The notes beneath the pieces are model-generated. The model saw only the letters and a program-made list of their open reading frames with translations, ran no database searches and was not told the DNA's origin. Below are positions 871 to 38,932 of a DNA stretch of 64,000 bases, piece by piece. The position numbers and the translations under genes were made by a program. Source of the stretch: Escherichia phage Eps7; the sequence record NC_010583.1; one strand, written 5' to 3'. Each line of letters begins with the position of its first letter. The stretch's first letter is position 1.

Positions 871-946
871 TGGTGGAGTCACTCAGAATTGAACTGAGTT
901 CCACTGCTTGCAAGGCAGTAAGTTTAACCAAATAACCTATGACCCC
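871..946 (-). tRNA. tRNA-Ala (anticodon UGC; tentative)
   Basis: T-arm ctcag/aattgaa/ctgag, acceptor ggagtca/tgacccc, anticodon hairpin actgc-ttgcaag-gcagt. Confidence 0.6.
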
Positions 947-952
947 GAATTT

Positions 953-1031
953 TGGTGGAGAATAACGGAATCGAACCGTTCTGATGTCCTCGGTGCAAGC
1001 GAGGTGTCCACTCCATGCAGACCCATTCCCC
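953..1031 (-). tRNA. tRNA (anticodon also reads UGC; identity uncertain)
   Basis: T-arm aacgg/aatcgaa/ccgtt, acceptor ggagaat/attcccc, hairpin cctcg-gtgcaag-cgagg; 7-nt variable loop. Confidence 0.5.
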
Positions 1032-1040
1032 AAAATTTAT

Positions 1041-1304
1041 TTATTCTCTATACATATCGAGAACAGTTGCTACAATCTGAGCTTCTAGCCTAGCAATATC
1101 TTTATTCACTATATCAGATTCTACTACTAAGTGATTATATATTGCTTCAGTTTTAGCAAGATCTACATCAGATAGTTTATTAAGACTATTATAATACTTA
1201 GCATTATTGCAACGTTTCTTCATATCGGAAACTCGTTTATGGAGTGTTCTTTGTTGATAACGTTGTGACATTAGTTTCTTAGCCATATCTTTCAGATCAA
1301 ACAT
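1041..1304 (-). CDS. hypothetical protein (87 aa)
   Basis: ORF downstream of a ~230-nt leader from the promoter cassette at 1545-1592. Confidence 0.4.
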   Translation of the reverse strand: MFDLKDMAKKLMSQRYQQRTLHKRVSDMKKRCNNAKYYNSLNKLSDVDLAKTEAIYNHLVVESDIVNKDIARLEAQIVATVLDMYRE

Positions 1305-1544
1305 GGATATTCCTTCTAGTTTACTAAGGCTATTAGCTCGGTGTGCGTATTACCCTCAGACATTAGCCAGTAGAGGATAATCGCTCTTCACAAACCCGAT
1401 ACACTATTCAGTTGCCGCTGAATCTAGCGGACTAATCTAGAACTTCTCCCGAGTCGTAGGGATCGTGCTTTTTTGGCAGCCAGTCCTAGGTCGAGCTAAT
1501 ACCTTAGTGAACTTTGATGAGGATTTCTCCTCATCAATTTATAT

Positions 1545-1592
1545 AAATATTATAACAAGAAATTAAGCATCAAGCAAGTACATTTTTAGCGA
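1545..1592 (-). promoter_or_regulatory. T5-type early promoter cassette (sigma70-like)
   Basis: On minus strand: A-rich UP, -35 CTTGCT, 17-nt spacer, -10 TATAAT, conserved leader ATTTATATAAATTGATGAGGAG. Confidence 0.55.
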
Positions 1593-3212: not shown

Positions 3213-3287
3213 TGGTGCGGTCGGAGGGAATCGAACCCTCAACTTCTGGTTGGCAACCAAAAAATTATACCTTTTAACTACGAACGC
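3213..3287 (-). tRNA. tRNA-Gly (anticodon GCC; tentative)
   Basis: T-arm gaggg/aatcgaa/ccctc, acceptor gcggtcg/cgaacgc, anticodon arm tctgg-ttggcaa-ccaaa. Confidence 0.55.
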
Positions 3288-3295
3288 ATAATAAG

Positions 3296-3500
3296 TCAAT
3301 CTAGGCAGGACTTGAACCTGCTATCACTTGTGCGGATTTACGAGAACCATTCTTTCACTCGAATCGAACGAGCTTCTACCCTCGGCAAGCTGGTGTCCCC
3401 TCTCCACCACGCTAGAATGATAATTAATGCCTGCTCCTTTGAATCAAGAAGTCCACCCCGGACTTTGGGTCTTTGCAGTACATCACGCTGCTCTGATGTT
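3296..3500 (-). other. tRNA-like elements (T-arm hairpins without complete cloverleaf); possible tRNA pseudogenes or small ncRNA
   Basis: Two strong T-arm-like hairpins (gcagg-acttgaa-cctgc at 3306-3322; actcg-aatcgaa-cgagc at 3357-3373) but no matching acceptor stem found by eye. Confidence 0.3.
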
Positions 3501-3576
3501 TGGTACACCCACTAGGACTTGAACCTAGAACCCTCCGCTTAAGAGGCGGTAGCTCTAACCATTGAGCTATGGATGT
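3501..3576 (-). tRNA. tRNA (possibly Lys, anticodon CUU)
   Basis: T-arm ctagg/acttgaa/cctag perfect, D-arm gctc...gagc, acceptor acaccca/tggatgt, loop ttaagag. Confidence 0.5.
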
Positions 3577-5088: not shown

Positions 5089-5096
5089 GCAGAAAT

Positions 5097-5172
5097 TGGC
5101 GTCCTGTGCGGGGATCGAACCCGCAAATCCTACCTTGAAAGGGTAGTGACTTTACCAGTTTGTCTAACAGGA
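5097..5172 (-). tRNA. tRNA-Glu (anticodon UUC)
   Basis: T-arm gcggg/gatcgaa/cccgc, acceptor gtcctgt/acaggac perfect, anticodon arm ctacc-ttgaaag-ggtag perfect. Confidence 0.65.
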
Positions 5173-6280: not shown

Positions 6281-6603
6281 TCTAAACCCTGGAAATATCG
6301 AGGGAATGGAGAGCCAACTTCAAAATTGATGCCCCAATTAAGTTCAACGAGTTCAGATTTATTAAGATCTAGGCCATTACCTTCAAAGATATAGCCGTAA
6401 ACCGCAGGGAACATAGCTGCTAGATCTTCCATATCGGAATGAGCATTGTGTTCTTCACGGAACTGCTCAACTCTTCAATAGAACTTTTCTAGGAGACTCA
6501 GGTACGATGAACGTTACCACATCAGTAGAATCATCGGTACGATACACCGTAGCTTGGAACAAGCCAACACCTAAAAGGTTTATTGCCGGAGTAGTAAAAA
6601 TAT
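6281..6603 (-). CDS. hypothetical protein (about 107 aa, apparent +1 frameshift near 6470)
   Basis: Two sub-threshold ORFs (MDIFTTPAINLLG... and ...EQFREEHNAHSDMEDLAAMFPAVYGYIFEGNGLDL...) in adjacent frames. Confidence 0.3.
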
Positions 6604-28969: not shown

Positions 28970-29462
28970 TACTCCTATAATTTTCCTGGATATTGATGGG
29001 GTGCTCAATTCGAGCATCTCTCACCATCATGCTCCAGATAGTGAAAAGCTATTCTTTGGTAGTGATTGGGTTTATAAGCCATTACTCCAGGCTTTTCAGA
29101 ACTTCCTTAAACCTTCTCCAATAATGATTGTTGGGGTATCTTCATGGTTTTCTGTACGAAACGAGATGGAGAACGTCCAGAGTATGACCGGGCTCGGTTT
29201 GATCGATCGTTTTCTTGGTACAACAGATTTTACTGGTGGCGGTTTATCTCGTGGTAATTCTGTCTTACGTTTCGTAGAAAAACATAAGCTCAAGCATTGG
29301 TGCGTCCTAGATGATGCTGGTGCTATGATGTATCAATTTCCTACTGTTATTGTAAATGGCAGGACTGGAATAAACCTTCAAGATTTAAATGCTATCAGCT
29401 ATATGCTGGAGTTTAGTCCAGATCTTGAAATGTGTAAGGCTCTTCAGAAACTCAAGGTGTAA
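28947..29462 (+). CDS. HAD-superfamily phosphatase-like protein
   Basis: HAD motif I IIFLDIDGVLNS; start uncertain. Confidence 0.5.
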   Translation: MLLVEISNTPIIFLDIDGVLNSSISHHHAPDSEKLFFGSDWVYKPLLQAFQNFLKPSPIMIVGVSSWFSVRNEMENVQSMTGLGLIDRFLGTTDFTGGGLSRGNSVLRFVEKHKLKHWCVLDDAGAMMYQFPTVIVNGRTGINLQDLNAISYMLEFSPDLEMCKALQKLKV

Positions 29463-29464
29463 AT

Positions 29465-29893
29465 ATGTTCGATAATCTTTTCATGAAAGAGGTAAACCCT
29501 ATGCTCCTCAACTTCTGGCGATCTCTCCCTGATGGTATGTATAATGAAACCATCAATCTGCTCAAGATTTGGTGTGAGAATAACGATATCTTCTTATCCT
29601 TTAAAGGCCCACTAGAGGAAGCTCCGTGTATTGGAGTTAGCGTGGATTTAGGGGAGGGAGTAGAAGAGATTGTAGACTGGAAAGAACTAGATGAAATGGG
29701 TCTGGTTTTTGCCTTGAACCATAAGCTGTTTATGCCTGCAAATCACCGTCTTATTGTAAACTATCGCACTGGTGAAGCTCCTGCTTTCCAGGTAAATGAA
29801 CGGGAGGGCTGGTCATATTCGCCCGAAGAAGTAAATGAGGGGATTCAGAAACTTCGTCGTTTCGGGTATATGATCCCAGGTTTAACTGCTTAA
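29465..29893 (+). CDS. hypothetical protein, paralog A (142 aa)
   Basis: Shares LVFALNHKLF.P...YMIPGL with the next gene (LIVALNFSIFHP...YVPGL). Confidence 0.55.
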   Translation: MFDNLFMKEVNPMLLNFWRSLPDGMYNETINLLKIWCENNDIFLSFKGPLEEAPCIGVSVDLGEGVEEIVDWKELDEMGLVFALNHKLFMPANHRLIVNYRTGEAPAFQVNEREGWSYSPEEVNEGIQKLRRFGYMIPGLTA

Positions 29894-29902
29894 GGAGGCA
29901 GA

Positions 29903-30298
29903 ATGGAACAAGTATTTTGGCGTCAGATAGATCCTAGTTTGGTAGAGCGTGCTGAGGGGCTCCTTGCACGTTGGTTGGGGGTTGACAAGGTTAGTGTAAC
30001 ATTTCCGTTTACTTCTGTAACAGACCCTAGTGTAGGTGTCTTTGTGGACGAAGATGAAGATGATGGTTGGGAAGCTGACTGGAATGAATTGTCCAGTATG
30101 GGCTTGATTGTTGCCCTCAACTTCTCTATATTCCACCCACGTGGTTTAGCTATTACACGTGATCCCGAAACCGGTGAATCCCCTTATCTTTTGCAAGTAG
30201 AAGATGATATTTGGGAGTACACCGAAGATATTCTCGAAGAAGCTAAAGGTCAATTAAATCGCATTGGGATCTATGTTCCAGGCCTAAATGATGATTGA
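29903..30298 (+). CDS. hypothetical protein, paralog B (131 aa)
   Basis: Tandem paralog of 29465-29893. Confidence 0.55.
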   Translation: MEQVFWRQIDPSLVERAEGLLARWLGVDKVSVTFPFTSVTDPSVGVFVDEDEDDGWEADWNELSSMGLIVALNFSIFHPRGLAITRDPETGESPYLLQVEDDIWEYTEDILEEAKGQLNRIGIYVPGLNDD

Positions 30299-30321
30299 TT
30301 TTCATTAGTCCAATCCTGATT

Positions 30322-30345
30322 ACCGAGTCATTTTGGCTCGGTTTT
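30322..30345 (+). terminator. intrinsic terminator
   Basis: Hairpin accgag...ctcggt followed by TTTTCTCT. Confidence 0.5.
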
Positions 30346-30390
30346 CTCTGTGCTCAAAGACACTGATAGCACCTTACGGAAAAATTTTAC

Positions 30391-30419
30391 TTGCAGGATG
30401 GTCAAAATCTTGATATAAT
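30391..30419 (+). promoter_or_regulatory. T5-type promoter (TTGCAG, 17 nt, TATAAT) with about 490-nt untranslated leader
   Basis: -35 TTGCAG, 17-nt spacer, -10 TATAAT; conserved leader start ATTTATATTGAATTGAGAGAC but no ORF until about 30916. Confidence 0.5.
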
Positions 30420-30915
30420 ATTTATATTGAATTGAGAGACATTAGTAAAAATTGATTTTGCTAATTTTTCTTGTTTACAATCCGCAATACGGAACAGTTA
30501 GGCTGCCCCATTAAGGGTTGTTTTAACTATTACTAGTGTTTATACTGCATTAGTTAATTATCAATTAAGTGATCTGCGTACCCTGAATTCGGAAAGGTAA
30601 ATCCAAACCGTGCATATTTAGCTCGTTATATAGGCAGAGCTTTATATGGGGGTGCGAACGAAAAGAGCAGCGAATGGTGACACGTCCAGTAGCCACCTAC
30701 CAATAGGATAGTGAGGGCAATCAGAATCGGCTTAGCGGCCAATGACCTAGGTTCTGATCTGGATAAGAGTTAAGAGAGCGCAGCACTGAGGTATGATAAC
30801 TTATTCATACTGCTTGATGATGATTAATGTTTGTGTAAATGGTAGTAATAGTTGTTCTATTCTTTTGAATAGTCCTAAAGAAAGATATTCGAATAACCAA
30901 CATAGGAGTATTGTT

Positions 30916-33705
30916 GTGTTCTCAATCCTACAAGGTCACGCAGGATTTTCCAGAGATAAAGCTACTGGCATCTGGAAAGAGATCAAAGTGGAAGATTACA
31001 CCTTTGCAAAGCGATTCTCTAAAGAGCATCCAGAAGGTAAACCAGCTTCCATGCCCTTCAAATTTGATGTACTTGAAGAACTTGACCCGCAAAACCTTGC
31101 TGAAATGTTACCTATCATGCGTCGTCTTACCAAAGACCCGCATATTGTAGCTATTCGTGGTAAATGTTTAGCCCCAAAAGATAATGTGCGTCGTACCAGG
31201 GGAAACTTTAACGTATCCAATCCTAGTCATATTATTGCTATGGACGTGGATGGTATTGTAGATACTGGTGGCTATGACAAGTTTAATCTTGTTGGCATGG
31301 CACGTCATATTATTAAGATGTTGAATAGTATTAGTGAGGATATGTTTCCTCTTGATGCAGGGTTTATTGCCCATGCATCGTCTTCGGCTGGATTAAAACC
31401 AGGTATCCGAATGCACTTAATGCTAGAATCTAATGTCAAGGTAACGCAGGGACAGTTAAAGTTCTTATTTACATCTATCAATGATAGTAGTAAGCAAAAG
31501 TACGGCTTTGATATTGCTGACTTAGCTTATTATTCTTCTGTTCAGCTTCACTATTTCGCAGATCCCTTATTTGATGATGGTATAGTCGATCCGTTTAAAG
31601 CGGAGAATAAACCACGTCTTGTGTATGTTAAGGGTTCGAAGGTAAATCTACCTAATAACCTAGTTGACTTTGAAACAACTAGAGGTGAGTTTAAAGAAGA
31701 GTTCTACTCCTTACTTGACCAAATTAAAGGCAAGAAGGCTGCATCTGATAAAGTGGAAGAAACCATCAGCGAACTAGAAGAAGCTGAGGATGGAGTGTAC
31801 CTGCGTATTATTCCAAAACTTTATCACAGAGCGTTAGAAGATGGTGTTGACTTTACGTGGTTAGAACGTGAAATTAAACCAGCTTTATCTGAGTATATTG
31901 CGACTAAAGATAATAGTCGTAATATTCAAGATTACTTTAATAACGGTCGTAAGCAGGCTCTCAAAGCCTTTGTAAATAACTCCAAACGTGAGATTCCACC
32001 AAACTTAAAAGGTGTACCATTAAAACGTCTAGACACAGATTCTCCACCAGAAGTTCCATACCTGAAAATTAACATTGTACCACCAAAAGGACATTTAACA
32101 TTTGTTAAGGCAAGTCTTGGTACGGGTAAAACTACCGCAGTAACTAAGTGGCTAGATGCAGGTGTTCTTCCAGGAAACTTTATTGCAATCACAAATACTA
32201 GGGCACTTGTATCTTCTAACGCGAAGAAATTCGGTGCTGGCCAGTATGATAAGTCAGTTGATATGCTGAACTTCAAACGTGGTGCCATTGATCGTATGTC
32301 TTCAACTATTCACTCTATCCATAAGTTCAAGAGCTTTGTGGGTCAGATTGATACGATCTTTATTGATGAATGTGACGCAGTAATGAATGATCTGTTATTC
32401 GCTCCGGTTGTTAAAAACCGTCGTGAATGTATTCAGGTTCTTCGTGATATCCTTATTACTGCTAAAACTGTTATCTTATCCGATGGTGATATCAGTGCAG
32501 AAACGATTGAAGCCTATGGTTCTTTGATTGATTTTGATAAACCAGTCGCATTTTATAATCACCACCGTAAAATGCTGGCGAAAGCTCATGCTTATGAATT
32601 CCCTGATGAATCCAGTATTTGGGTTGCACTTCAAACATCTTTAGAGATGGGGGAGAAATCAATCCTAGTATCTGACTGTGGCCCGGATGAACTGAATGAG
32701 AAGGGAATGGCATTACGTCGTAATACTGGTGCGTTAGTTAAAGAAATTCACTCAAACTCTACGTCTGATGTAGATATCCGACGTATTCTGGATTATACAA
32801 CTAATGAGCTAATTGATCAACAGATTGATTGTTTATTATGTAGTCCATCTGTAACGAGTGGTGTTGACTTTAACTATTTTGATAACGTATTCGTAATCAC
32901 TAGAACCTCAAACCAAGCGCCAAACATGCGTTTTCAAGCAATCAGGCGCGACCGTGGTGCTCAGAACATTTATTATTTTATTGATAAATCTACGAGTGGA
33001 TTTTCTGCGGGTTCCGAGCAATATAATATTGACGAAGGTTGGATTGAGTTAGCCCAACAACTGTACGCACGTCGTCGTGAGCTGGAATCTAGAAACTATA
33101 CCAGTACTTTGCGGTATTATCTTCTCGATCAAGGTGCAACTATTGATATTTTCAGTGAAAGCTGGGGAACTATCGAAGGTGCAGGCAAAGAGTATACAGA
33201 AGAGCGAATCAAAGCTATTTTGCACTCAACTCCTGAATATTGCGCACCACGTCATGCAGACGCATATGAAGCTAAATTGCTTCTGGTTCGCTATTATCAT
33301 CTGGATTCTATCAAAGATGTAACAGTGGAACATGTTGAACAGTATATCAAGGATAAACCGAATGATCGAGCTGCATTTTTCCACAAGATGCACGACATGT
33401 TCTGGGAAGATATTAAAAAGTGTTCAAACGTAACAATCAAACCGTTTATCGAAGCTCTTAAGAATAAGAAGAAGGATTTCTTCCTTAAGACAGGTCAGAG
33501 CGCTAACCCAAAATATGCTCGTATGTATCTTGGCATGATGGGTATCGGTAAAGATCTGGATACGGAAAAGATTGTGGACTGGTACAGAACTTACTGTAAG
33601 ATCGAATGTATGCCGATTCCAGTTAAGTTTATGACAGACGAAGAACGTCAGATGCACGAGGAAGCTCTTGCTGAATTGGGAGCTAGAAATGACAGTGAAG
33701 AATAA
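30916..33705 (+). CDS. large P-loop NTPase/helicase-like replication protein (putative origin-binding protein)
   Basis: Walker A GTGKTT, DExD-like IFIDECD; likely start GTG 30916 with AGGAG RBS 7 nt upstream (ORF track starts at 30793). Confidence 0.55.
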   Translation: MFSILQGHAGFSRDKATGIWKEIKVEDYTFAKRFSKEHPEGKPASMPFKFDVLEELDPQNLAEMLPIMRRLTKDPHIVAIRGKCLAPKDNVRRTRGNFNVSNPSHIIAMDVDGIVDTGGYDKFNLVGMARHIIKMLNSISEDMFPLDAGFIAHASSSAGLKPGIRMHLMLESNVKVTQGQLKFLFTSINDSSKQKYGFDIADLAYYSSVQLHYFADPLFDDGIVDPFKAENKPRLVYVKGSKVNLPNNLVDFETTRGEFKEEFYSLLDQIKGKKAASDKVEETISELEEAEDGVYLRIIPKLYHRALEDGVDFTWLEREIKPALSEYIATKDNSRNIQDYFNNGRKQALKAFVNNSKREIPPNLKGVPLKRLDTDSPPEVPYLKINIVPPKGHLTFVKASLGTGKTTAVTKWLDAGVLPGNFIAITNTRALVSSNAKKFGAGQYDKSVDMLNFKRGAIDRMSSTIHSIHKFKSFVGQIDTIFIDECDAVMNDLLFAPVVKNRRECIQVLRDILITAKTVILSDGDISAETIEAYGSLIDFDKPVAFYNHHRKMLAKAHAYEFPDESSIWVALQTSLEMGEKSILVSDCGPDELNEKGMALRRNTGALVKEIHSNSTSDVDIRRILDYTTNELIDQQIDCLLCSPSVTSGVDFNYFDNVFVITRTSNQAPNMRFQAIRRDRGAQNIYYFIDKSTSGFSAGSEQYNIDEGWIELAQQLYARRRELESRNYTSTLRYYLLDQGATIDIFSESWGTIEGAGKEYTEERIKAILHSTPEYCAPRHADAYEAKLLLVRYYHLDSIKDVTVEHVEQYIKDKPNDRAAFFHKMHDMFWEDIKKCSNVTIKPFIEALKNKKKDFFLKTGQSANPKYARMYLGMMGIGKDLDTEKIVDWYRTYCKIECMPIPVKFMTDEERQMHEEALAELGARNDSEE

Positions 33706-33922
33706 AAAGTGGGAAACAAGGAAGTTTCCAGTAAAAGAACGTAAAACTTCTGTTTACGATACTGCGGAGAAACTATGTAGGGTTGTACCACCTCGTCTCG
33801 CTGGCATCCCTAATGTCTCCATATGGTTACTTAAACAACGGAAGACTCGTGTGTCTCTTCGCATTGGCTTTGAGTTAGATAAAGTCTATGCTGAACTTGC
33901 TTCTTTGCTCAAAGAATCATAA
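33689..33922 (+). CDS. hypothetical protein (77 aa)
   Basis: ORF MTVKNKKWETRKF... overlapping previous stop. Confidence 0.45.
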   Translation: MTVKNKKWETRKFPVKERKTSVYDTAEKLCRVVPPRLAGIPNVSIWLLKQRKTRVSLRIGFELDKVYAELASLLKES

Positions 33923-33931
33923 AAATTTTAT

Positions 33932-33960
33932 TTGCTTTCAGGAAAAATTTTCTGTATAAT
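33932..33960 (+). promoter_or_regulatory. T5-type promoter (TTGCTT, 17 nt, TATAAT)
   Basis: Conserved leader ...ATAAATTTGAGAGAGGAGTTTAAAT then ATG at 33992. Confidence 0.6.
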
Positions 33961-33991
33961 AGATTCATAAATTTGAGAGAGGAGTTTAAAT

Positions 33992-34696
33992 ATGGCTGGT
34001 TCTCGTAGAAAGAAACTTATCCATGAAATCCCTGATGAAACCTTTAAAAAGGTTATTGAACATCTGGAGAATGGTGGTACTAAGAAAGCAGCCTGTGAGA
34101 TGCTCGGTGTTTCTTCTAACCCAACTATGGAACGAATGATCGAGGAATGGAGAGATCGTCAGGTTCAAGTTGCGGAAATGAAAAAGAAGAAGCGCGGAAC
34201 ACTAATTGAAGGTGTTGAGCTTGCAAACGTAATTGAACAGTATCTTTCTGGTGATTCTTTTGAAGAAATCGCAGATCGTAACTATCGTTCTGTAGCGATG
34301 ATTAAATCTGTTCTGGAACGTTATGGTGCTCTGCTTCGTTTAAACGATATTGTTGATCCATTGAATCCTCCATTGATTCCTGATGATGCAATGGCAGAAG
34401 AATTTGAAGTTGGCGAACTTGTTTGGGTTCCCGGCTACCAGTGTATTGGTGAAATCAAGAAAGCAATGACTAACCCAGTTGGCTGCTACCGTGTTTGGTT
34501 GTTATCAGAAGGTAAACAACAGAACGTTCACTATATGCACTACGAATTAGCTTCTGTTAAACATCTGGAAAAGCTGGGAGTTGATGTTAAAGCTCTGGGC
34601 TTTAAATGGAGCCGTGAAGAAGTTATCACGTTGGTTAATGAAGCTGTTAAAGCCGCCCTGAAACTCGATAAAGAGAAAGGAAAACGTCGTGAGTAA
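33992..34696 (+). CDS. hypothetical protein (234 aa), possible HTH DNA-binding regulator
   Basis: N-terminal helix-turn-helix-like segment (GGTKKAACEMLGVSSNPTMERMI); strong promoter. Confidence 0.55.
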   Translation: MAGSRRKKLIHEIPDETFKKVIEHLENGGTKKAACEMLGVSSNPTMERMIEEWRDRQVQVAEMKKKKRGTLIEGVELANVIEQYLSGDSFEEIADRNYRSVAMIKSVLERYGALLRLNDIVDPLNPPLIPDDAMAEEFEVGELVWVPGYQCIGEIKKAMTNPVGCYRVWLLSEGKQQNVHYMHYELASVKHLEKLGVDVKALGFKWSREEVITLVNEAVKAALKLDKEKGKRRE

Positions 34697-34922
34697 ACTA
34701 ACTGATCTGTTAAAAGCTGGAGACGTGAAATATCTCCAGCGAGATAGCTGGAAGAACACCCGAGACTTTACATTCTTGTTAAAATTTGATGTAGATAGTG
34801 ACACTGTTAAGCTATATGAGTGGCCTAGTATACACTGCGTACGCCCGATAGTAACAGTAGTTAATCTTAGTCTAGAAGAAGCTCTGGCCGACGATTGGGA
34901 GATCGTTGAACTAGATGTGTAG
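34689..34922 (+). CDS. hypothetical protein (77 aa)
   Basis: ORF overlapping previous stop. Confidence 0.5.
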   Translation: MSKLTDLLKAGDVKYLQRDSWKNTRDFTFLLKFDVDSDTVKLYEWPSIHCVRPIVTVVNLSLEEALADDWEIVELDV

Positions 34923-34942
34923 CAGTTACTGAAAAATTTCAG

Positions 34943-34971
34943 TTGCTTAATCCTGTAATTCTTGATATAAT
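34943..34971 (+). promoter_or_regulatory. T5-type promoter (TTGCTT, 17 nt, TATAAT)
   Basis: Preceded by a short palindrome (actgaaa..tttcagt). Confidence 0.55.
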
Positions 34972-35029
34972 ATTCTCATAGTTTGAAAGAACTATTCTGT
35001 TTAATTCTTAATTAAGGAAATCGAAAAAT

Positions 35030-35440
35030 ATGACTACTCCAACTCAGTGGACTGATGAACTGTTCGAAAAAATGTCTTCCGACTACGTTGCTCGTATGGA
35101 GCAATTCCCAGAAGATGAGCGTCCGGGCGTTAGCATGGAAATTGTTAGCGAAATTGCTCAGGAAAATGGTGTAACTCCGAACGGTTTCCGTATGAAGCTG
35201 ACCAAAGCAGGTCTGTATATCAAGAAAGCTGCTGGCTCTACTTCTAAATCAAGCGCATCTACTGGAGAAAAAGCTTCTGGTGGTTCTCGTACTTCCAAAG
35301 CTCAGGCGCACTCCGATCTTCGCTCTGCATTCTCTGATGCTGGCTTAGCACCGGACTTCCTGGACGACGCAATCATCGACAAGCTGACCGGTAAAGCAGC
35401 TGCTCATCTGGCAGAAGCTATCCGAGCTATCACTAAGTAA
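35030..35440 (+). CDS. hypothetical protein (136 aa), probably abundant
   Basis: Codon usage strongly biased to preferred codons (GCT, GGT, CTG, CGT). Confidence 0.6.
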   Translation: MTTPTQWTDELFEKMSSDYVARMEQFPEDERPGVSMEIVSEIAQENGVTPNGFRMKLTKAGLYIKKAAGSTSKSSASTGEKASGGSRTSKAQAHSDLRSAFSDAGLAPDFLDDAIIDKLTGKAAAHLAEAIRAITK

Positions 35441-35476
35441 TTCTTAGATAAATCCACCAACACAAGGAATACAGTT

Positions 35477-35773
35477 ATGAATAAAGCTGAAATTATTGCT
35501 CAATGCGAAAAATTTGGTGAGTTTTATCTTCATTACGAAAAACTTCGTCAGAAAGGAACCACGTACCTTCAGGGTACGATGGAGTTTGATCCAGCTCAGG
35601 ATAAATACCTGGCTGAGCGTATTAAACGTGAGCGCATCCGTAAGCCGAAAGAAGATGAAATCCTAGTTTTCTCTCGTACTAACGATAGCTTCCGTTTCAT
35701 TCCTGTTGTGAAAGTTCGCCGTGTGACGAGCCTCCAGTCAGAGTTAGATCGTGCTTCTCCAGTAGGCCGATAA
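35477..35773 (+). CDS. hypothetical protein (98 aa)
   Basis: ORF followed by terminator. Confidence 0.55.
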   Translation: MNKAEIIAQCEKFGEFYLHYEKLRQKGTTYLQGTMEFDPAQDKYLAERIKRERIRKPKEDEILVFSRTNDSFRFIPVVKVRRVTSLQSELDRASPVGR

Positions 35774-35783
35774 GAAACCAATT

Positions 35784-35808
35784 AGCCCCTATATGGGGCT
35801 TTTTGTGT
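35784..35808 (+). terminator. intrinsic terminator
   Basis: agcccctatatggggct then TTTTTGTGTATTT. Confidence 0.6.
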
Positions 35809-35823
35809 ATTTGGGATATGTAA

Positions 35824-36132
35824 ATGAGCGATCAGGTAAATCAAAACTATGAAGGACACATTGACGACCAGTCCATCATGCTTTGGGAGAAGGACGGGGA
35901 ACAAGTAAGACTAACCGTATCTGAATTTCGTGGGAATCTATACATGGGAATTCGTTACTGGCTCCAAGATATTACTGGAGAGTGGTTTCCAACGAAATCC
36001 GGCTTCTCTTTTCCTTATACCCTAGAAACTACATCACAGCTATTTTACGCTTTTACGCAAATCCTCAGTGAATCCGAGGTCTTGCATGAAGTACAGAAAC
36101 GAGCTGAAGAACTCAAAGCCAAGAATGCCTAG
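35824..36132 (+). CDS. hypothetical protein (102 aa)
   Basis: ORF followed by terminator. Confidence 0.55.
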   Translation: MSDQVNQNYEGHIDDQSIMLWEKDGEQVRLTVSEFRGNLYMGIRYWLQDITGEWFPTKSGFSFPYTLETTSQLFYAFTQILSESEVLHEVQKRAEELKAKNA

Positions 36133-36146
36133 TTCTTGGCTTTTTC
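36118..36146 (+). terminator. intrinsic terminator
   Basis: gccaagaa-tgcctag-ttcttggc then TTTTTCTTT. Confidence 0.55.
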
Positions 36147-36159
36147 TTTATAAATGTAC

Positions 36160-36188
36160 TTGCTTTCGACTCAGTTTTGTTATATAAT
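36160..36188 (+). promoter_or_regulatory. T5-type promoter (TTGCTT, 17 nt, TATAAT)
   Basis: Leader ATTTATATAAATTGATGAGAGATATAAATAA then ATG at 36220. Confidence 0.6.
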
Positions 36189-36219
36189 ATTTATATAAAT
36201 TGATGAGAGATATAAATAA

Positions 36220-37191
36220 ATGACTAATGTAAAAGAATTTATTAAACGCTGTCAAGAAGCATATTATCAAGGTATGTCTTTAATCTCTGACGAAGAATAT
36301 GATCGTCTGATTAAAAGATTCCCACTAGAGGAAGAAATCGGACCGAAAGGTGATATTCCTCATTTGTATCGTATGTATTCTTTGCAGAAAGTCTATTACG
36401 GTCGCGGTGATAAAGCTCCATTCAATCCATTAGGTCAGGTTGAAACTGATAAGTTAGATGGTTGTGCGATTTCTCTATTATATATTAATGGTGAATTTGT
36501 TCAAGCGTTAACTCGTGGTAACGGTATTCTAGGGAATGATGTAACGCATAATGTTAAAATGCTGAACATCCCCAAAACTATTTCCCAAAAAGTACCAACT
36601 CAAATCACTGGTGAAGTTCTCATTACTAAAGAAGTAGAGAACAAACGTAACTACGCTTCGGGTGCTATTAACCTGAAAGACAGCGATGATTTCATCCAAC
36701 GTATTGGTGAAGGTGGTTTAATCTTCGTTGCATACGGTATCCAGTGTTCAGCGGAAACAGTCGGTATTACAGAAGCCTATTTAAAAGATATGCTTTGGCT
36801 AGAGAATGAGAACTTCTTGACAGTTGTTAATGTTCGTTCCTTTTTTAAATGGATTCCGACGGACGGTAAAGTTGTTCGTATTAACGACAACAATAAATTC
36901 TTCCGTGAAGGTTGGACTAATAAATTTCCTCGTGGTGCATTTGCTATTAAAGAGGATGAAGAAGGCGAAATTACCACACTTGTTAAAGTTGAATGGCAAG
37001 TAGGGGCTTCTGGTAAAGTAACTCCAGTTGGTTATTTCGAACCGGTGATTATTGATGATGCCACAATCGTTAAAGCAACTCTTAATAACGTTGATTATAT
37101 TAACGCTCTCGATTTAGAGATCGGTTGCCAGATTCGAGTGATTCGTGCTGGTGGTGTAATCCCTTGTATAGTAGAGCGAGTATACGACTAA
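36220..37191 (+). CDS. ligA: NAD-dependent DNA ligase, N-terminal subunit (adenylation + OB domains)
   Basis: Adenylation motif I ETDKLDGC (KxDG), LigA-like N-terminus ...EEYDRL...; 323 aa ending before the Zn-finger/HhH/BRCT part. Confidence 0.75.
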   Translation: MTNVKEFIKRCQEAYYQGMSLISDEEYDRLIKRFPLEEEIGPKGDIPHLYRMYSLQKVYYGRGDKAPFNPLGQVETDKLDGCAISLLYINGEFVQALTRGNGILGNDVTHNVKMLNIPKTISQKVPTQITGEVLITKEVENKRNYASGAINLKDSDDFIQRIGEGGLIFVAYGIQCSAETVGITEAYLKDMLWLENENFLTVVNVRSFFKWIPTDGKVVRINDNNKFFREGWTNKFPRGAFAIKEDEEGEITTLVKVEWQVGASGKVTPVGYFEPVIIDDATIVKATLNNVDYINALDLEIGCQIRVIRAGGVIPCIVERVYD

Positions 37192-37239
37192 TTCGTAACC
37201 CTTTGCTACCCGTTTACCATGTCGGAATTATAAAGTGGT

Positions 37240-37268
37240 TATTGACATTTTCGCCGCTTAGGTATATA
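37240..37268 (+). promoter_or_regulatory. sigma70-like promoter (TTGACA, 17 nt, TATACT) between ligase halves
   Basis: Near-consensus hexamers; followed by an 8-codon micro-ORF (MARVSKVS). Confidence 0.5.
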
Positions 37269-37334
37269 CTATTATCATTCAGTTGAGGGATAGAAAGTTA
37301 TGGCGAGGGTAAGCAAAGTTAGTTAAAATTGTAG

Positions 37335-37363
37335 TTGCTAAATGCTTAAATACTTGCTATAAT
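37335..37363 (+). promoter_or_regulatory. T5-type promoter (TTGCTA, 17 nt, TATAAT) for ligase C-terminal subunit
   Basis: Conserved leader ATTTATATAAATTGATAAGGAAGAAATTTG then ATG. Confidence 0.55.
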
Positions 37364-37393
37364 ATTTATATAAATTGATAAGGAAGAAATTTG

Positions 37394-38172
37394 ATGAAAA
37401 TCGAAATTCCAACACAATGTCCCTCTTGTGGTTCTAAGCTAGATCTTGTCAACGGGCAATTATTCTGTAGGAATAAGTCCAACTGTCCAGCGCAATCAAG
37501 TAAGTTAATCGAGAACTTCTGCACAAAAATGAAGTTAAAGGGCTTTGGCCCGAAAACTATTGAGAAGCTGGAGCTGACTAAGATCTCAGAACTGTTTTAC
37601 CTGACCGAAGAAGATTTGGTCGGAGCTGTGGGTAGCAAGGTTGCCGCTAAATTGATTAGCGAGTTAAATACAAGGTTCGCGGAGACATTGACTTTGGTTC
37701 AGTTCTCGGTTCTTTAGGAATTCCTCTTATTGGAGAGGTTGCAGCAAAGAAACTGTCCCAAAATTGCACTAGCTTCCACGATGTGAAGGCTGACGGCAAG
37801 GCTGGAGAAAATTACAAAACCTGGCTAAATTCCCCACAAGGCAAGGATGTTATTGAATTACCGTGGAAATTCTCAACTGGTATCCGAGGTGCTAAAGCTG
37901 ACATCATCATTACAGATGATTTAGTTGCCCAGCCAAATGGAATCACGGTCTGTATTACCGGATCTTTGCAAGATTTTGCAAATCGAACGGATGCAACAAA
38001 CTATTTAGAAAGTCTAGGGTATACGGTTAAGAAGTCCGTTACCAAAGACGTCAAATACCTAATCTGTGAGGATGAATCAAAACGTTCTTCCTCATCTTAT
38101 AAGAAAGCCGAAACGAATGGGATAGAAATCCTGTCGATTAAAGAACTATTGGAGAAAAATAATAATGTCTAA
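37394..38172 (+). CDS. ligB: NAD-dependent DNA ligase, C-terminal subunit (Zn finger, HhH, BRCT); frameshifted at T3 tract 37713-37715
   Basis: Zn-finger CPSCGSKL...[10 protein letters not shown], HhH ([14 protein letters not shown]), BRCT-like VCITGSL...; a T4 tract gives ...[13 protein letters not shown] matching LigA ...FLYALGIREVGE. Confidence 0.65.
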
Positions 38173-38932
38173 ACTGAACTGGAACGTAGAAGGTGTAACC
38201 GAGTCTCTGAAAGCAAAAGCCACTGCTCTGGGTGTTGCTGTAATCTCTCAAGAACAAGTAGCTGCTATCGCTGCTGAACTGGCTACCGAGACTGGTAAAG
38301 ACGTTACCGCTCGCTCTGTTGGCTCTAAGCTGCGTAAAGAAGGTTTCGAAGTACAGAAAGCTAACGAAGTACAGAAATCCCCGTGGACTCCTGAGCAGGA
38401 AGCTGAACTGGTTGATTTCCTGAACGCTCATGCGGGTCAGTATACTTACGCTGAAATCGCTGCTGCTGTAGCTGGTGGTCAGTTCGGTGCTAAGCAGGTT
38501 CAGGGTAAGATCCTGAGTCTGGAAATGACTGCTTCTGTTAAGCCAACCGAAAAAGCTGCTGCTGTTCGTTCCTTCACTCCTGACGAAGAAACTGATTTCG
38601 TTAATCAGGTTGTTGCTGGTGCTACTATTGAAGCTATCGCTGCTCACTTCGGTCGCAATATTAAGCAGATCCGTGGTAAAGCTCTGAGTCTGCTTCGTGA
38701 AGGTCGTATCGCTGCTATGCCGGTACAGGAAACTTCAAGTGCTAAAACTCGTGAAGATCTGTTAGAAGGTCTGGATCTGGCTAACATGACTGTTGCTGAG
38801 ATCGCTGAGAAAACTGGTAAGTCTGAGCGCGGTGTTAAATCTATGCTGTCTCGTCGTGGTCTGGTTGCTAAGGACTATGATGGTGCCGCTAAGCGTGCTA
38901 AACTGGATGCAAAAGCTGCGGCTGCTGAATAA
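38165..38932 (+). CDS. putative DNA-binding protein with four internal repeats (255 aa)
   Basis: Four repeats of about 45 aa (...ARSVGSKLRKEG, ...KQVQGKILSLE, ...KQIRGKALSLLREG, ...ERGVKSMLSRRG); highly optimised codon usage. Confidence 0.5.
   Translation: MSKLNWNVEGVTESLKAKATALGVAVISQEQVAAIAAELATETGKDVTARSVGSKLRKEGFEVQKANEVQKSPWTPEQEAELVDFLNAHAGQYTYAEIAAAVAGGQFGAKQVQGKILSLEMTASVKPTEKAAAVRSFTPDEETDFVNQVVAGATIEAIAAHFGRNIKQIRGKALSLLREGRIAAMPVQETSSAKTREDLLEGLDLANMTVAEIAEKTGKSERGVKSMLSRRGLVAKDYDGAAKRAKLDAKAAAAE

What the first reader, a model, noticed from the sequence alone, without database searches (positions are those of the whole stretch)
1305..1534. Long structured 5' leader with a hairpin replacing the usual RBS position
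The cassette at 1545-1592 is followed not by the usual GAGAGAGGA-ATG but by a perfect hairpin (gatgagga-gaaa-tcctcatc) and about 200 nt of GC-balanced leader before the 87-aa ORF. This suggests transcriptional or translational attenuation, or an sRNA sharing the promoter.
Basis: seen in the sequence. Interest (0 to 1): 0.35.

Follow-up and report, generated by a model that had tools for sequence, protein, structure and literature searches.

The report
Phage T5 stable RNA gene RNA2H
The supposed long "leader" is a separate gene for a roughly 174-base, tightly folded non-coding RNA that is already annotated in phage T5 as "RNA2H, function unknown"; I find it across T5-like phages with a conserved double-pseudoknot fold that matches no curated RNA family.

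Summary
On the minus strand, a T5-type early promoter (-35 at 1577-1572, -10 at 1554-1549) is followed by a perfect hairpin (1537-1514, GAAA loop). About 210 nt of 45-48% GC sequence then precede the ATG at 1304.

It is the ortholog of T5 rna2H, annotated in RefSeq NC_005859 as a 172-nt "stable RNA with unknown functions" behind promoter P13b.

- **Independent of its neighbours.** The element keeps its own promoter, while the downstream gene varies: the 87-aa ORF here, tRNA-Ala in T5, tRNA-Leu in My1, other ORFs or RNAs elsewhere.
- **Strongly supported structure.** About 95% of cells pair (33-40% in slid controls), and 47 of 64 pairs show compensatory changes.
- **The fold.** A 22-bp terminal duplex with a bulged purine (G in all but phi 3) encloses a three-hairpin junction locked by two loop-to-strand pseudoknots.
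- **Distribution.** Covariance models find it in Pectobacterium and Vibrio T5-like phages too. There is no Rfam match.
- **The hairpin.** Its 5' arm is the promoter cassette's usual ribosome-binding sequence, so it probably masks that site.

Function remains unknown. The RNA is dispensable in the laboratory, and I infer a trans-acting, protein-binding accessory RNA.

The parts
1549..1577 (-). T5-type early promoter: -35 TTGCTT (1577-1572), 17-nt spacer, extended -10 TGtTATAAT (1557-1549, TATAAT at 1554-1549). Equivalent to T5 promoter P13b.
   Evidence: Sequence read. It is one of 8 copies of the cassette in the window against 0 expected. T5 and phage 5 records annotate 'promoter P13b' at the homologous place. 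TTGCT(T/A)-17-TGATATAAT is also present upstream of the homologs in Sugarland-like, KKP_3711, My1 and Vibrio phages. The generic scan missed it because TTGCTT matches only 3 of 6 positions of TTGACA.
1542..1542 (-). Probable transcription start: the A 7 nt after the -10 element.
   Evidence: Inferred by analogy with the T5 PN25 promoter (TATAAT-AGATTC-A, recalled from memory). Not tested here.
1514..1537 (-). Promoter-proximal hairpin: 10-bp perfect stem (UUGAUGAGGA/UCCUCAUCAA) with a GAAA tetraloop (1527-1524). Its 5' arm is the cassette's usual Shine-Dalgarno-like GAGGAG.
   Evidence: -13 kcal/mol for the inner 9 bp plus loop. Other cassettes use the same ATAAATTGATGAGG... as ribosome-binding site plus ATG. 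The stem is kept with different sequences in KKP_3711 (GAUGGUA/UACCAUC) and My1 (AAGUUAAGGAGA/UCUCCUUAACUU). The whole segment is absent in Sugarland-like and Vibrio phages, which also lack the SD-like sequence.
1318..1513 (-). The complete structured element, closed by a 22-bp duplex. P1ext is 1513-1502 with 1329-1318; P1 is 1501-1492 with 1340-1331; G1330 is bulged.
   Evidence: The terminal helix is 96-98% paired, and 16 of its 22 pairs show compensatory changes. Duplex energy is -26 kcal/mol. The bulge is G in all aligned clades and A in phi 3.
1328..1501 (-). Predicted mature stable RNA, 174 nt, from UAUUAGCUCG to CGAGCUAAUAGCC. Ortholog of T5 RNA2H.
   Evidence: Ends transferred from the T5 (NC_005859: 31808-31979) and phage 5 (AJ604531: 4021-4192) misc_RNA annotations. 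Covariance model scores for the window copy: 224.9 bits (R1) and 212.2 bits (R2); note that the window sequence is in the alignments both models were built from.
1481..1486 (-). Pseudoknot 1 (P2), 5' strand GGACUG. It pairs with UAGUCC (1434-1429) inside the P5 loop.
   Evidence: 95-100% paired, with 4 of 6 pairs covarying, although this helix was not part of the covariance models.
1475..1478 (-). Pseudoknot 2, 5' strand UGCC. It pairs with GGCA (1416-1413) inside the P6 loop and is followed by the A-rich linker 1474-1469.
   Evidence: 95-100% paired. Variants by clade: ACC/GGU, UACC/GGUA, GCA/UGC, GCAA/UUGC, GACA/UGUC and UUGC/GCAA (the My1 variant needs a 1-nt shift in the alignment).
1401..1468 (-). 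Core three-hairpin junction closed by P3 (GCAC 1468-1465 with GUGU 1404-1401). It holds P4 (1462-1447, variable tip), P5 (1441-1437 with 1427-1423) and P6 (1422-1418 with 1411-1407).
   Evidence: P3 is 100% paired, with ACUC/GAGU in Javier. P5 and P6 change completely between clades while staying complementary. P4 carries 23-25 extra nt in some Epseptimaviruses and a tRNA-like insert in phi 3.
1341..1391 (-). P7, the long 3' hairpin. The window has 'type A', with the loop UGGCUAAU that is invariant within this type. It is a replaceable peripheral module.
   Evidence: 93-95% paired, with 11 of 12 pairs covarying. T5, phage 5 and bombadil carry an unrelated 'type B' hairpin; My1 and the Vibrio phages carry others.
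1041..1317 (-). Context only: Shine-Dalgarno AGAAGGA (1317-1311) and the 87-aa ORF (1304-1041). This is a lineage-specific insert between the RNA and tRNA-Ala.
   Evidence: No significant PHROG or Pfam family: no PHROG hit, and one sub-threshold Pfam hit (Bromodomain, 17.1 bits against a 21.7-bit cutoff). The ORF is absent in T5, phage 5, Gostya9 and Sugarland-like phages, where tRNA-Ala follows the RNA directly.

Best explanation
Window 1318-1577 (minus strand) is a self-contained gene for a small stable non-coding RNA, the ortholog of phage T5 RNA2H. It is not a regulatory leader of the 87-aa ORF.

Shown here:
- It has its own T5-type early promoter.
- It is homologous to the annotated T5 and phage 5 'stable RNA'.
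- It folds into a conserved architecture: a 22-bp terminal duplex with a bulged purine (G in all but phi 3), then a junction of three hairpins (P4, P5, P6) closed by P3.
- The loops of P5 and P6 each pair with the single strand just upstream (GGACUG and UGCC), forming two pseudoknots, next to an A-rich linker.
- A swappable peripheral hairpin (P7) follows the core.

Inferred:
1. The RNA is made as the first unit of a polycistronic early transcript. It is cut out within the long terminal duplex. The ends annotated in T5 fall opposite each other with a 2-base-pair 3' stagger, as RNase III would leave. Downstream tRNAs or the ORF are matured or translated independently.
2. The promoter-proximal hairpin pairs the cassette's built-in Shine-Dalgarno-like GAGGAG with an added complement. 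Ribosomes therefore do not load on a non-coding 5' end. Related phages solve the same problem by deleting that segment.
3. The excised, compact RNA acts in trans as a folded particle, most probably by binding a protein. This could be an accessory or counter-defence role, in keeping with the tRNA region being a dispensable anti-defence island.

My probabilities: stand-alone structured stable RNA, about 0.9. Excision by cleavage in the terminal duplex, about 0.6. Trans-acting protein binder or decoy, about 0.35.
For: Homology and annotation:
- blastn finds the stretch in 504 phage records, 394 of them covering at least 80% of the query.
- The T5 RefSeq and the phage 5 tRNA-region records annotate it as misc_RNA rna2H, 'stable RNA with unknown functions', 172 nt, behind promoter P13b.

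Structure:
- MFE z-score is -6.0.
- RNAalifold recovers P1, P2 and P7.
- The named structure is 94.5-95.2% paired, against 32-40% when partners are slid. Pairs with changes on both sides number 27, 46 and 47 of 64, and 0 of 500 shuffles reach the observed covariation score or percentage paired.
- Both pseudoknots stay at least 95% paired although they were not in the covariance models.

Breadth: models R1 and R2 find full-length homologs in
- Pectobacterium phage My1 (55.8 then 120.9 bits);
- Vibrio phages 70E35-3 and D51 (45.7 and 39.7 bits with R1);
- Javier (59.5 bits) and VspSw_1 (47.7 bits);
- and, read by eye, phi 3.

Independence from neighbours: the downstream and upstream genes differ between phages while the promoter and RNA stay together.

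Not coding: stop codons occur in all three frames of the transcribed strand, and single-base indels occur between close relatives.

Hairpin and ribosome-binding site.

Dispensable accessory status:
- Viable T5 deletion mutants remove the locus. T5-123 lacks 29191-32442 and T5Mos lacks 30661-38625 (PMC11464382), and rna2H lies at 31808-31979.
- Phage FFH1 has lost the core by a deletion between GCTCGA repeats.
Against: - No expression or end-mapping data could be examined. The mature ends rest on a database annotation whose experimental basis I could not read, and no paper on RNA2H is in the searchable library.
- RNase III involvement is inferred from geometry only.
- Nothing identifies a partner or a phenotype.
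- Few nucleotides are invariant across clades. This fits a scaffold but proves nothing.
- Covariation comes from roughly eight clades, so the number of independent events is modest.
- Alignments A5 and A6 were fitted to the nested helices.
- An alternative helix that competes with P6 and pseudoknot 2 is also 98.6% paired within the enterobacterial clades. It is absent from My1 and the Vibrio phages.
Confidence: 0.8

Rival explanations
1. It is a cis-regulatory leader, either an attenuator or a riboswitch, that controls transcription read-through or translation of the 87-aa ORF.
For: It lies between a promoter and an ORF and is highly structured. Within the enterobacterial clades, a helix that competes with P6 and pseudoknot 2 is also conserved, which could hint at two conformations.
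Against: - No terminator is found on the transcribed strand.
- The ORF's Shine-Dalgarno sequence is outside the structure and unpaired.
- The closing duplex of 22 bp is far too stable for a ligand-gated P1.
- The element precedes tRNAs or unrelated genes in other phages.
- It is annotated as a stable RNA in T5.
- It matches no Rfam riboswitch or leader family.
- The alternative helix is not kept in My1 or the Vibrio phages.
Confidence: 0.04
2. It is a purely cis-acting processing or insulation module. In this reading the structured block only organises maturation or stability of the polycistronic early transcript and the downstream tRNAs, and has no trans function of its own.
For: It always sits at the head of a transcription unit inside the tRNA cluster, and tRNAs follow within 1-20 nt in T5, phage 5, Sugarland-like phages, My1 and Javier. 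The long terminal duplex looks like a processing stem.
Against: - A processing signal needs only the duplex. The elaborate double-pseudoknot core is conserved by covariation across subfamilies.
- FFH1 keeps the duplex and the tRNA but has lost the core. The core therefore does something separable from the stem.
- Other promoter cassettes run straight into tRNAs without such a block (site 2924-2944).
- In the window's own lineage an ORF separates the RNA from the tRNA.
Confidence: 0.12
3. It is a catalytic RNA, for example a self-cleaving ribozyme that releases itself from the precursor.
For: Nested or double pseudoknots are typical of several small ribozymes, and the RNA has to be excised somehow.
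Against: - It matches no ribozyme family in Rfam, even at E-values up to 10.
- Very few core nucleotides are invariant across clades.
- The annotated ends lie in a perfect duplex rather than next to the conserved core.
Confidence: 0.03
4. It is a degenerate tRNA, a tRNA-like RNA or a tmRNA-like RNA, like the neighbouring T5 'tRNA-like' RNAs 1-3.
For: It sits in the tRNA cluster. The annotated 3' end (...A-GCC) superficially resembles a discriminator base plus CC. In phi 3, a tRNA-like insert sits in P4.
Against: - ARAGORN and the Rfam tRNA and tmRNA models find nothing at this locus.
- There is no T-arm or D-arm.
- The 'CC' covaries as base pairs of the extended stem: GG/CC becomes AG/CU in the Vibrio phages.
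- T5 RNA2, which is tRNA-like, is unrelated in sequence.
Confidence: 0.02

Closest known systems
Phage T5 RNA2H (gene rna2H, T5s04, NC_005859 31808-31979; also AJ604531 4021-4192)
   Same: Direct ortholog. The T5 group matches at 83-88% identity over about 95% of the stretch. The promoter (P13b) is the same, the position in the tRNA cluster upstream of tRNA-Ala is the same, and the core helices are the same.
   Different: - The window copy carries the 'type A' 3' hairpin rather than T5's 'type B'.
- It has one extra A in the linker.
- It has a perfect rather than a mismatched 5' hairpin.
- It is separated from tRNA-Ala by an 87-aa ORF.
- The T5 annotation gives no structure or function.
Phage T4 small stable RNAs of the tRNA cluster (species 1 and 2, rnaC and rnaD). 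Recalled from memory, not tested.
   Same: They are phage-encoded, abundant, stable non-tRNA RNAs, co-transcribed and co-processed with phage tRNAs. They are dispensable, and their function is still unknown.
   Different: T4 belongs to a different phage family, and there is no evidence of homology.
RNase III processing stems (rRNA operon stems, T7 early-transcript sites). Established knowledge.
   Same: Flanking sequences form a duplex of about 22 bp that encloses the mature RNA. The annotated ends are staggered by 2 base pairs with a 3' overhang.
   Different: Cleavage by RNase III has not been shown for this RNA. The conserved bulged purine and the AUAGUU...AACUA base of the stem have no assigned role.
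Hairpin-loop-to-strand pseudoknots and kissing loops (for example the 9-nt HIV-1 DIS loop: 2 unpaired, 6 paired, 1 unpaired). Established knowledge.
   Same: The P5 loop (AU-UAGUCC-R) has the same 2 / 6 / 1 layout. The P6 loop pairs 3-4 nt and ends in conserved A residues, next to an A-rich strand.
   Different: Here the partner is an upstream strand of the same molecule. At least that is how I modelled it; pairing between molecules is not excluded.
phi29 packaging RNA (pRNA, 174 nt; Rfam Phage_pRNA)
   Same: Similar size, a 5'/3' terminal helix, and 4-nt loop pairings that hold the functional fold together.
   Different: There is no Rfam match. T5-like phages are not known to use an RNA for DNA packaging (from memory). 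The pRNA loops pair between molecules, and its genomic context is different.

Membership tests
T5 RNA2H stable RNA | Sequence homology to the annotated T5 and phage 5 rna2H over its full length | tested here: met
   blastn hit H76 lands on 'rna2H: RNA 2H'. T5 RefSeq annotates the same feature. Alignments A1-A3 confirm the match. The window copy scores 224.9 bits against the covariance model; it is one of the sequences the model was built from.
T5 RNA2H stable RNA | Synteny: own early promoter (P13b type) upstream, inside the tRNA cluster, with tRNA-Ala downstream | tested here: met
   The promoter is identical in sequence to P13b. A tRNA-Ala(UGC) gene lies at 953-1031 after the inserted 87-aa ORF.
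T5 RNA2H stable RNA | Accumulates as a discrete stable RNA of about 172 nt in infected cells | not testable with these tools
   Only the database annotation is available. No primary paper is in the searchable library.
Transcription attenuator or riboswitch leader | An intrinsic terminator or an SD-sequestering helix that alternates with an anti-terminator or anti-sequestor | tested here: not met
   There is no terminator-like site on the minus strand. The ORF's Shine-Dalgarno sequence (1317-1311) lies outside the structure and is unpaired.
Transcription attenuator or riboswitch leader | Consistent association with a particular regulated gene or pathway | tested here: not met
   The downstream gene differs between phages: ORF87, tRNA-Ala, other ORFs, tRNA-Leu, or another promoter plus RNA.
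Any curated Rfam family (riboswitches, ribozymes, 6S, Y RNA, pRNA, tmRNA, tRNA and others) | Covariance-model match at or near the family's gathering score | tested here: not met
   No hit at gathering thresholds over the whole window apart from tRNAs. In 1250-1620 at E-values up to 10 there are only chance-level snoRNA and CRISPR fragments, with a best score of 21 bits against a 45-bit cutoff.
tRNA or tRNA-like RNA | Cloverleaf with T-arm and D-arm | tested here: not met
   ARAGORN and Rfam tRNA find nothing at 1305-1545.
RNase III-excised RNA | Flanks form a duplex of about 20 bp or more around the mature RNA | tested here: met
   P1ext plus P1 make 22 bp at -26 kcal/mol. The helix is 96-98% paired, with 16 of 22 pairs covarying.
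RNase III-excised RNA | Mature ends lie opposite each other in the duplex with a 2-nt 3' overhang, and depend on rnc | tested here: inconclusive
   The ends annotated in T5 and phage 5 (5' U of UAUUAG; 3' ...AUAGCC) give a 2-base-pair 3' stagger plus the bulged G. The basis of that annotation is unknown, and dependence on rnc cannot be tested here.
Protein-coding small ORF | An open frame conserved among relatives | tested here: not met
   Stop codons occur in all three minus-strand frames. Close relatives differ by 1-nt indels. Substitutions are compensatory in helices.

The most novel reading that the evidence does not exclude
RNA2H may be the founding member of an uncharacterised class of compact, double-pseudoknotted phage RNAs. 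It is conserved in all the Demerecviridae lineages I sampled. In this reading it works in trans as a protein-binding particle, for example as a decoy or inhibitor of a host RNA-targeting or tRNA-targeting defence nuclease, or as the RNA subunit of a phage ribonucleoprotein. It would then be a non-tRNA counterpart of the anti-defence tRNAs encoded in the same dispensable region.
Probability: 0.3. Interest if true: 0.75.

Novelty: already known. Interest (0 to 1): 0.5.

Why it matters
The tRNA region of T5-like phages has recently been shown to be an anti-defence island. Its tRNAs rescue infection from PARIS and from the tRNA-Tyr-degrading Retron-Eco7 (PMC11464382, PMC11555353). A bacterial Schlafen nuclease, in turn, cleaves both host and T5 tRNAs (PMC13056530). 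The several "stable RNAs with unknown functions" encoded between those tRNAs have been left uncharacterised.

This analysis turns one of them from a bare annotation into a defined RNA family. It now has a covariation-supported fold, defined boundaries, modular parts, natural deletion variants and a family-wide distribution. That makes its function directly testable.

For genome annotation it also matters in a practical way. Almost none of the roughly 800 phage records that carry this RNA annotate it, and some place spurious "hypothetical protein" genes over it.

Tried and rejected
Rfam
- At gathering thresholds over the whole window, and at E-values up to 10 over 1250-1620, nothing appears but tRNAs and chance fragments.

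Homologs outside phages
- blastn against all complete E. coli genomes and against PLSDB plasmids gave no match. There is therefore no host or plasmid homolog detectable at the sequence level.

Pattern scans of IMG/VR
- I scanned with AGTGTATCGNNTTTGNGA and TTTGTGAAGAGCGNNTATCC.
- These returned only T5-like, Sugarland-like and KKP-type phages, plus about 35 chance matches in unrelated coding DNA, for example L069.
- I did not use the metagenome or genome collection scans. No pattern short of the whole enterobacterial consensus would be specific, and distant homologs share too few fixed bases.

Literature
- Searches for RNA2H, AJ604531 and T5 stable RNAs found no paper on this RNA.

Other leads that went nowhere
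- An alternative helix, GCAACUG with CGG..UUUG, is 98.6% paired in the enterobacterial clades. I rejected it as part of the common fold. It is not kept in My1 or the Vibrio phages, and its outer pairs conflict with the better-supported P7 base.
- A hit to the type-A P7 loop motif in Vibrio phage Javier (L076 5806-5828) lies inside a real coding region, so I treat it as chance.
- T5 RNA2 is an unrelated tRNA-like RNA, so the 'H' in RNA2H does not mean homolog of RNA2.
- The protein upstream of the RNA in the window is not homologous to the one in My1, so I could not use it as an anchor. I used the dNMP kinase instead.
- The flanking ORFs have no informative family.

Full report
**What the window is.** The first 11 kb is the tRNA-gene region of a T5-like phage, with all genes on the minus strand. 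ARAGORN finds 21 tRNA genes. The stretch 1000-1950 is 97% identical to Escherichia phage GreteKellenberger and Salmonella phage STG2, both Demerecviridae.

**Checking the observation.** On the minus strand the sequence reads TTGCTT (1577-1572), a 17-nt spacer, then TGtTATAAT (-10 at 1554-1549).
- This promoter cassette occurs 8 times in the window, against 0 expected by chance.
- Six other copies continue ATAAATTGA(T/A)..., then GAGG, AAGGAG, GGAG or a weaker purine run, with an ATG 7-12 nt after that. One copy runs straight into a tRNA.
- In this copy the same ATAAATTGATGAGGAG is followed by its own complement.
- A further 211 nt precede the ATG at 1304.
- The stretch is 45-48% GC, like the tRNAs. 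The window averages 40% and the 87-aa ORF is 31%.
- It folds far better than shuffled sequence (-85.1 against -57.8 +/- 4.5 kcal/mol, z = -6.0).

One caveat: a perfect hairpin alone is not rare in this window.

**What it is.** blastn finds the stretch in 504 phage records, and almost none annotate it.
- The exceptions are the curated tRNA-region record of Salmonella phage 5 (AJ604531) and the T5 RefSeq record (NC_005859).
- Both call it misc_RNA rna2H, "stable RNA with unknown functions". It is 172 nt, sits behind "promoter P13b", and is followed directly by tRNA-Ala and tRNA-Leu.
- Transferring those ends puts the mature RNA at window 1501-1328 (174 nt).
- It is not coding. All three frames of the transcribed strand carry stops, close relatives differ by single-base indels, and substitutions are compensatory.
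- Rfam has no family for it. E. coli genomes and plasmids hold no homolog detectable by blastn.

**Structure: terminal duplex and core.** I built alignments of 21-24 distinct sequences from Tequintavirus, Epseptimavirus, Sugarlandvirus and Enterobacter phage KKP_3711. RNAalifold recovers a terminal helix, a long-range helix and the 3' hairpin.
- Reading the clades against each other shows that the terminal helix extends 12 bp beyond the annotated ends. AGUUCACUAAGG pairs with CCUUAGUAAACU, and both strands are replaced compensatorily in other clades.
- The result is a 22-bp duplex with one bulged G (window: 1513-1492 with 1340-1318, G1330; -26 kcal/mol).
- Inside the duplex, P3 (GCAC/GUGU) closes three hairpins.
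- P4 has a variable tip.
- P5 is UCUAG/CUAGA here and becomes CGG/CCG, CUGGA/UCCAG, CUCAG/CUGAG or GACA/UGUC in other clades.
- P6 is UUCAG/CUGAA here and becomes ACGC/GCGU, AGGU/ACCU, AGGGG/CCCCU or CCGGA/UCCGG.

**Structure: the two pseudoknots.**
- The 9-nt P5 loop pairs with GGACUG upstream (P2, pseudoknot 1).
- The P6 loop pairs with UGCC upstream (pseudoknot 2). An A-rich linker follows.

**Covariation counts.**
- On the MAFFT alignment the full structure is 94.5% paired, against 32-40% when partners are slid. 27 pairs change on both sides.
- On model-based alignments that add more distant phages, it is 95.2% paired with 46 of 64 pairs covarying, and 94.8% paired with 47 of 64. In both, 0 of 500 shuffles reach the observed values.
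- The two pseudoknots were not part of the covariance models, yet they stay at least 95% paired.
- Pseudoknot 2 appears as UGCC/GGCA, ACC/GGU, UACC/GGUA, GCA/UGC, GCAA/UUGC and GACA/UGUC. In My1 it is UUGC/GCAA after a 1-nt shift in the alignment.

Caveats: there are only about eight clades, and the model-based alignments lean towards the nested helices.

**Distribution.** Model R1 found a full-length homolog in an unannotated intergenic region of Pectobacterium phage My1 (Mccorquodalevirinae; 55.8 bits, E = 2e-18).
- The My1 layout is the same: TTGCTT-17-TATAAT, then a 12-bp 5' hairpin that buries UAAGGAG, then the RNA, then an unannotated tRNA-Leu-like gene starting one base after the stem (read by eye).
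- R1 also found homologs in Vibrio crassostreae phages (45.7 and 39.7 bits). blastn finds this version in 289 Vibrio phage records.
- The retrained model R2 adds Vibrio phage Javier (Thalassavirus; 59.5 bits). There the RNA sits between tRNA-Glu and tRNA-Ala.
- R2 also adds VspSw_1 (Pogseptimavirus; 47.7 bits).
- In Vibrio phage phi 3 I read the whole element by eye. Its P4 is expanded by a degenerate tRNA-like insert that scores 21 bits against Rfam tRNA.

The family therefore spans the sampled Demerecviridae lineages and always lies in the tRNA cluster.

**Modularity and loss.**
- The 3' hairpin P7 comes in unrelated versions. Type A, with the loop UGGCUAAU that is invariant within this type, is in the window, Sugarland-like phages and KKP_3711. 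Type B is in T5, phage 5 and bombadil. My1 and the Vibrio phages carry others.
- P4 varies from 16 nt to about 40 nt, and to a tRNA-sized insert in phi 3.
- Phage FFH1 has deleted everything between two GCTCGA repeats, keeping only the duplex.
- Viable T5 deletion mutants (T5-123, lacking 29191-32442; T5Mos, lacking 30661-38625) lack the gene (with coordinates).

The RNA is therefore an accessory function under laboratory conditions.

**How it most likely works.**
- Shown: it has its own promoter, a conserved fold, and independence from neighbouring genes.
- Inferred (1), excision. The ends annotated in T5 lie opposite each other in the 22-bp duplex with a 2-base-pair 3' stagger. That is the signature of RNase III, as in rRNA and T7 processing stems. 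The 'CC' at the 3' end covaries as base pairs (GG/CC becomes AG/CU in the Vibrio phages), which argues against a tRNA-like CCA end.
- Inferred (2), the 5' hairpin. It neutralises the Shine-Dalgarno-like sequence built into the promoter cassette. My1 and KKP_3711 keep a hairpin of different sequence over their own SD-like segment. Sugarland-like and Vibrio phages have simply lost that segment.
- Inferred (3), trans action. Conservation lies in the architecture rather than in single-stranded sequence. That argues against an antisense mechanism and for a folded particle that binds a protein.
- Given that the surrounding tRNAs are counter-defence genes (PMC11464382, PMC11555353), a decoy or inhibitor role is my leading guess, at about 0.35.

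**Rivals.**
- Attenuator or riboswitch: rejected. There is no terminator, the ORF's Shine-Dalgarno sequence is free, the downstream genes vary, and the closing helix is hyper-stable.
- A cis-only processing module: possible, but it does not explain the conserved core, and FFH1 keeps the stem without the core.
- Ribozyme, tRNA-like RNA and a coding ORF are all unlikely.

**Verdict.** The element is real and is already known as an annotated T5 gene. What is new here:
- its covariation-supported double-pseudoknot structure;
- the processing stem;
- the SD-masking reading of the hairpin;
- its distribution across the Demerecviridae lineages sampled.

Its function remains open.

Noticed in passing
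L073 (Vibrio phage 70E35-3) about 3218-3430, + strand: A second copy of the same promoter sits immediately after the RNA2H homolog. It is followed by another, unrelated, strongly structured candidate RNA of about 165 nt. That RNA is closed by an 18-bp stem (AGUUCUUUGAGAAAGU/ACUUUCUCAAAGAAUU), folds at -50.9 kcal/mol with z = -4.9, and tRNAs start at 3520. The base of its stem (AUAGUU...) resembles that of RNA2H.
   Followed up: partly
L072 (Vibrio phage phi 3) 6300-6575, + strand: The phi 3 homolog carries a degenerate tRNA-like sequence inserted in hairpin P4. Its D-arm and T-arm are good and its anticodon arm is defective; it scores 21.3 bits against Rfam tRNA (cutoff 29) and ARAGORN does not call it. 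Its bulged base is A rather than G. A separate P1-like hairpin with no core lies at 5092-5140.
   Followed up: partly
L067 (Escherichia phage FFH1) 640-690: This is a natural deletion of the whole RNA2H core between two GCTCGA repeats. It leaves the promoter, the 5' hairpin, the terminal duplex and the tip of P7 in front of tRNA-Ala.
   Followed up: yes
L001 (phage 5) 2877-2995 and L005 (bombadil) about 290-400: An insertion of about 115 nt sits inside the 5' hairpin, between GATG and CATC, and is closed by GAUACCAG/CUGGUAUC. Its fold is not clearly better than shuffled sequence (z = -1.2 to -1.6), and its nature is unknown.
   Followed up: partly
window 1341-1391, compared with T5 L070 about 1521-1571: The 3' hairpin of the RNA exists in two unrelated versions that do not follow phage taxonomy. 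Type A is shared by this Epseptimavirus and the distant Sugarland and KKP_3711 phages at about 80% identity. Type B is shared by T5 and the Epseptimavirus bombadil. This looks like module exchange by recombination.
   Followed up: partly
window 1398-1390 with 1415-1409 (alignment A3 columns 129-135 / 146-154): An alternative helix, GCAACUG with CGG..UUUGY, is mutually exclusive with P6 and pseudoknot 2. It is 98.6% paired across all enterobacterial clades but is absent from My1 and the Vibrio phages. It could be coincidence from a G/U-rich strand, or a clade-specific second conformation.
   Followed up: partly
window 871-946 and 953-1031, minus strand: ARAGORN calls two adjacent tRNA-Ala(UGC) genes. 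Only the first reaches the Rfam tRNA gathering score. The second (79 nt) corresponds to the unusually long T5 and phage 5 tRNA-Ala that follows RNA2H.
   Followed up: no
window 1514-1537, + strand: Read on the plus strand, the same hairpin followed by TTTATATAAA scores as a terminator-like site. No plus-strand gene runs into it in this region.
   Followed up: no
phage records under the RNA2H locus (for example GEC_vB_N3, vB_EcoS_MM-1, Roth49, Vibrio D-series): Several deposited genomes annotate short 'hypothetical protein' genes across the RNA, on either strand. Some also label the 87-aa ORF 'Rho-associated coiled-coil kinase 2'. These are probably annotation artefacts.
   Followed up: no
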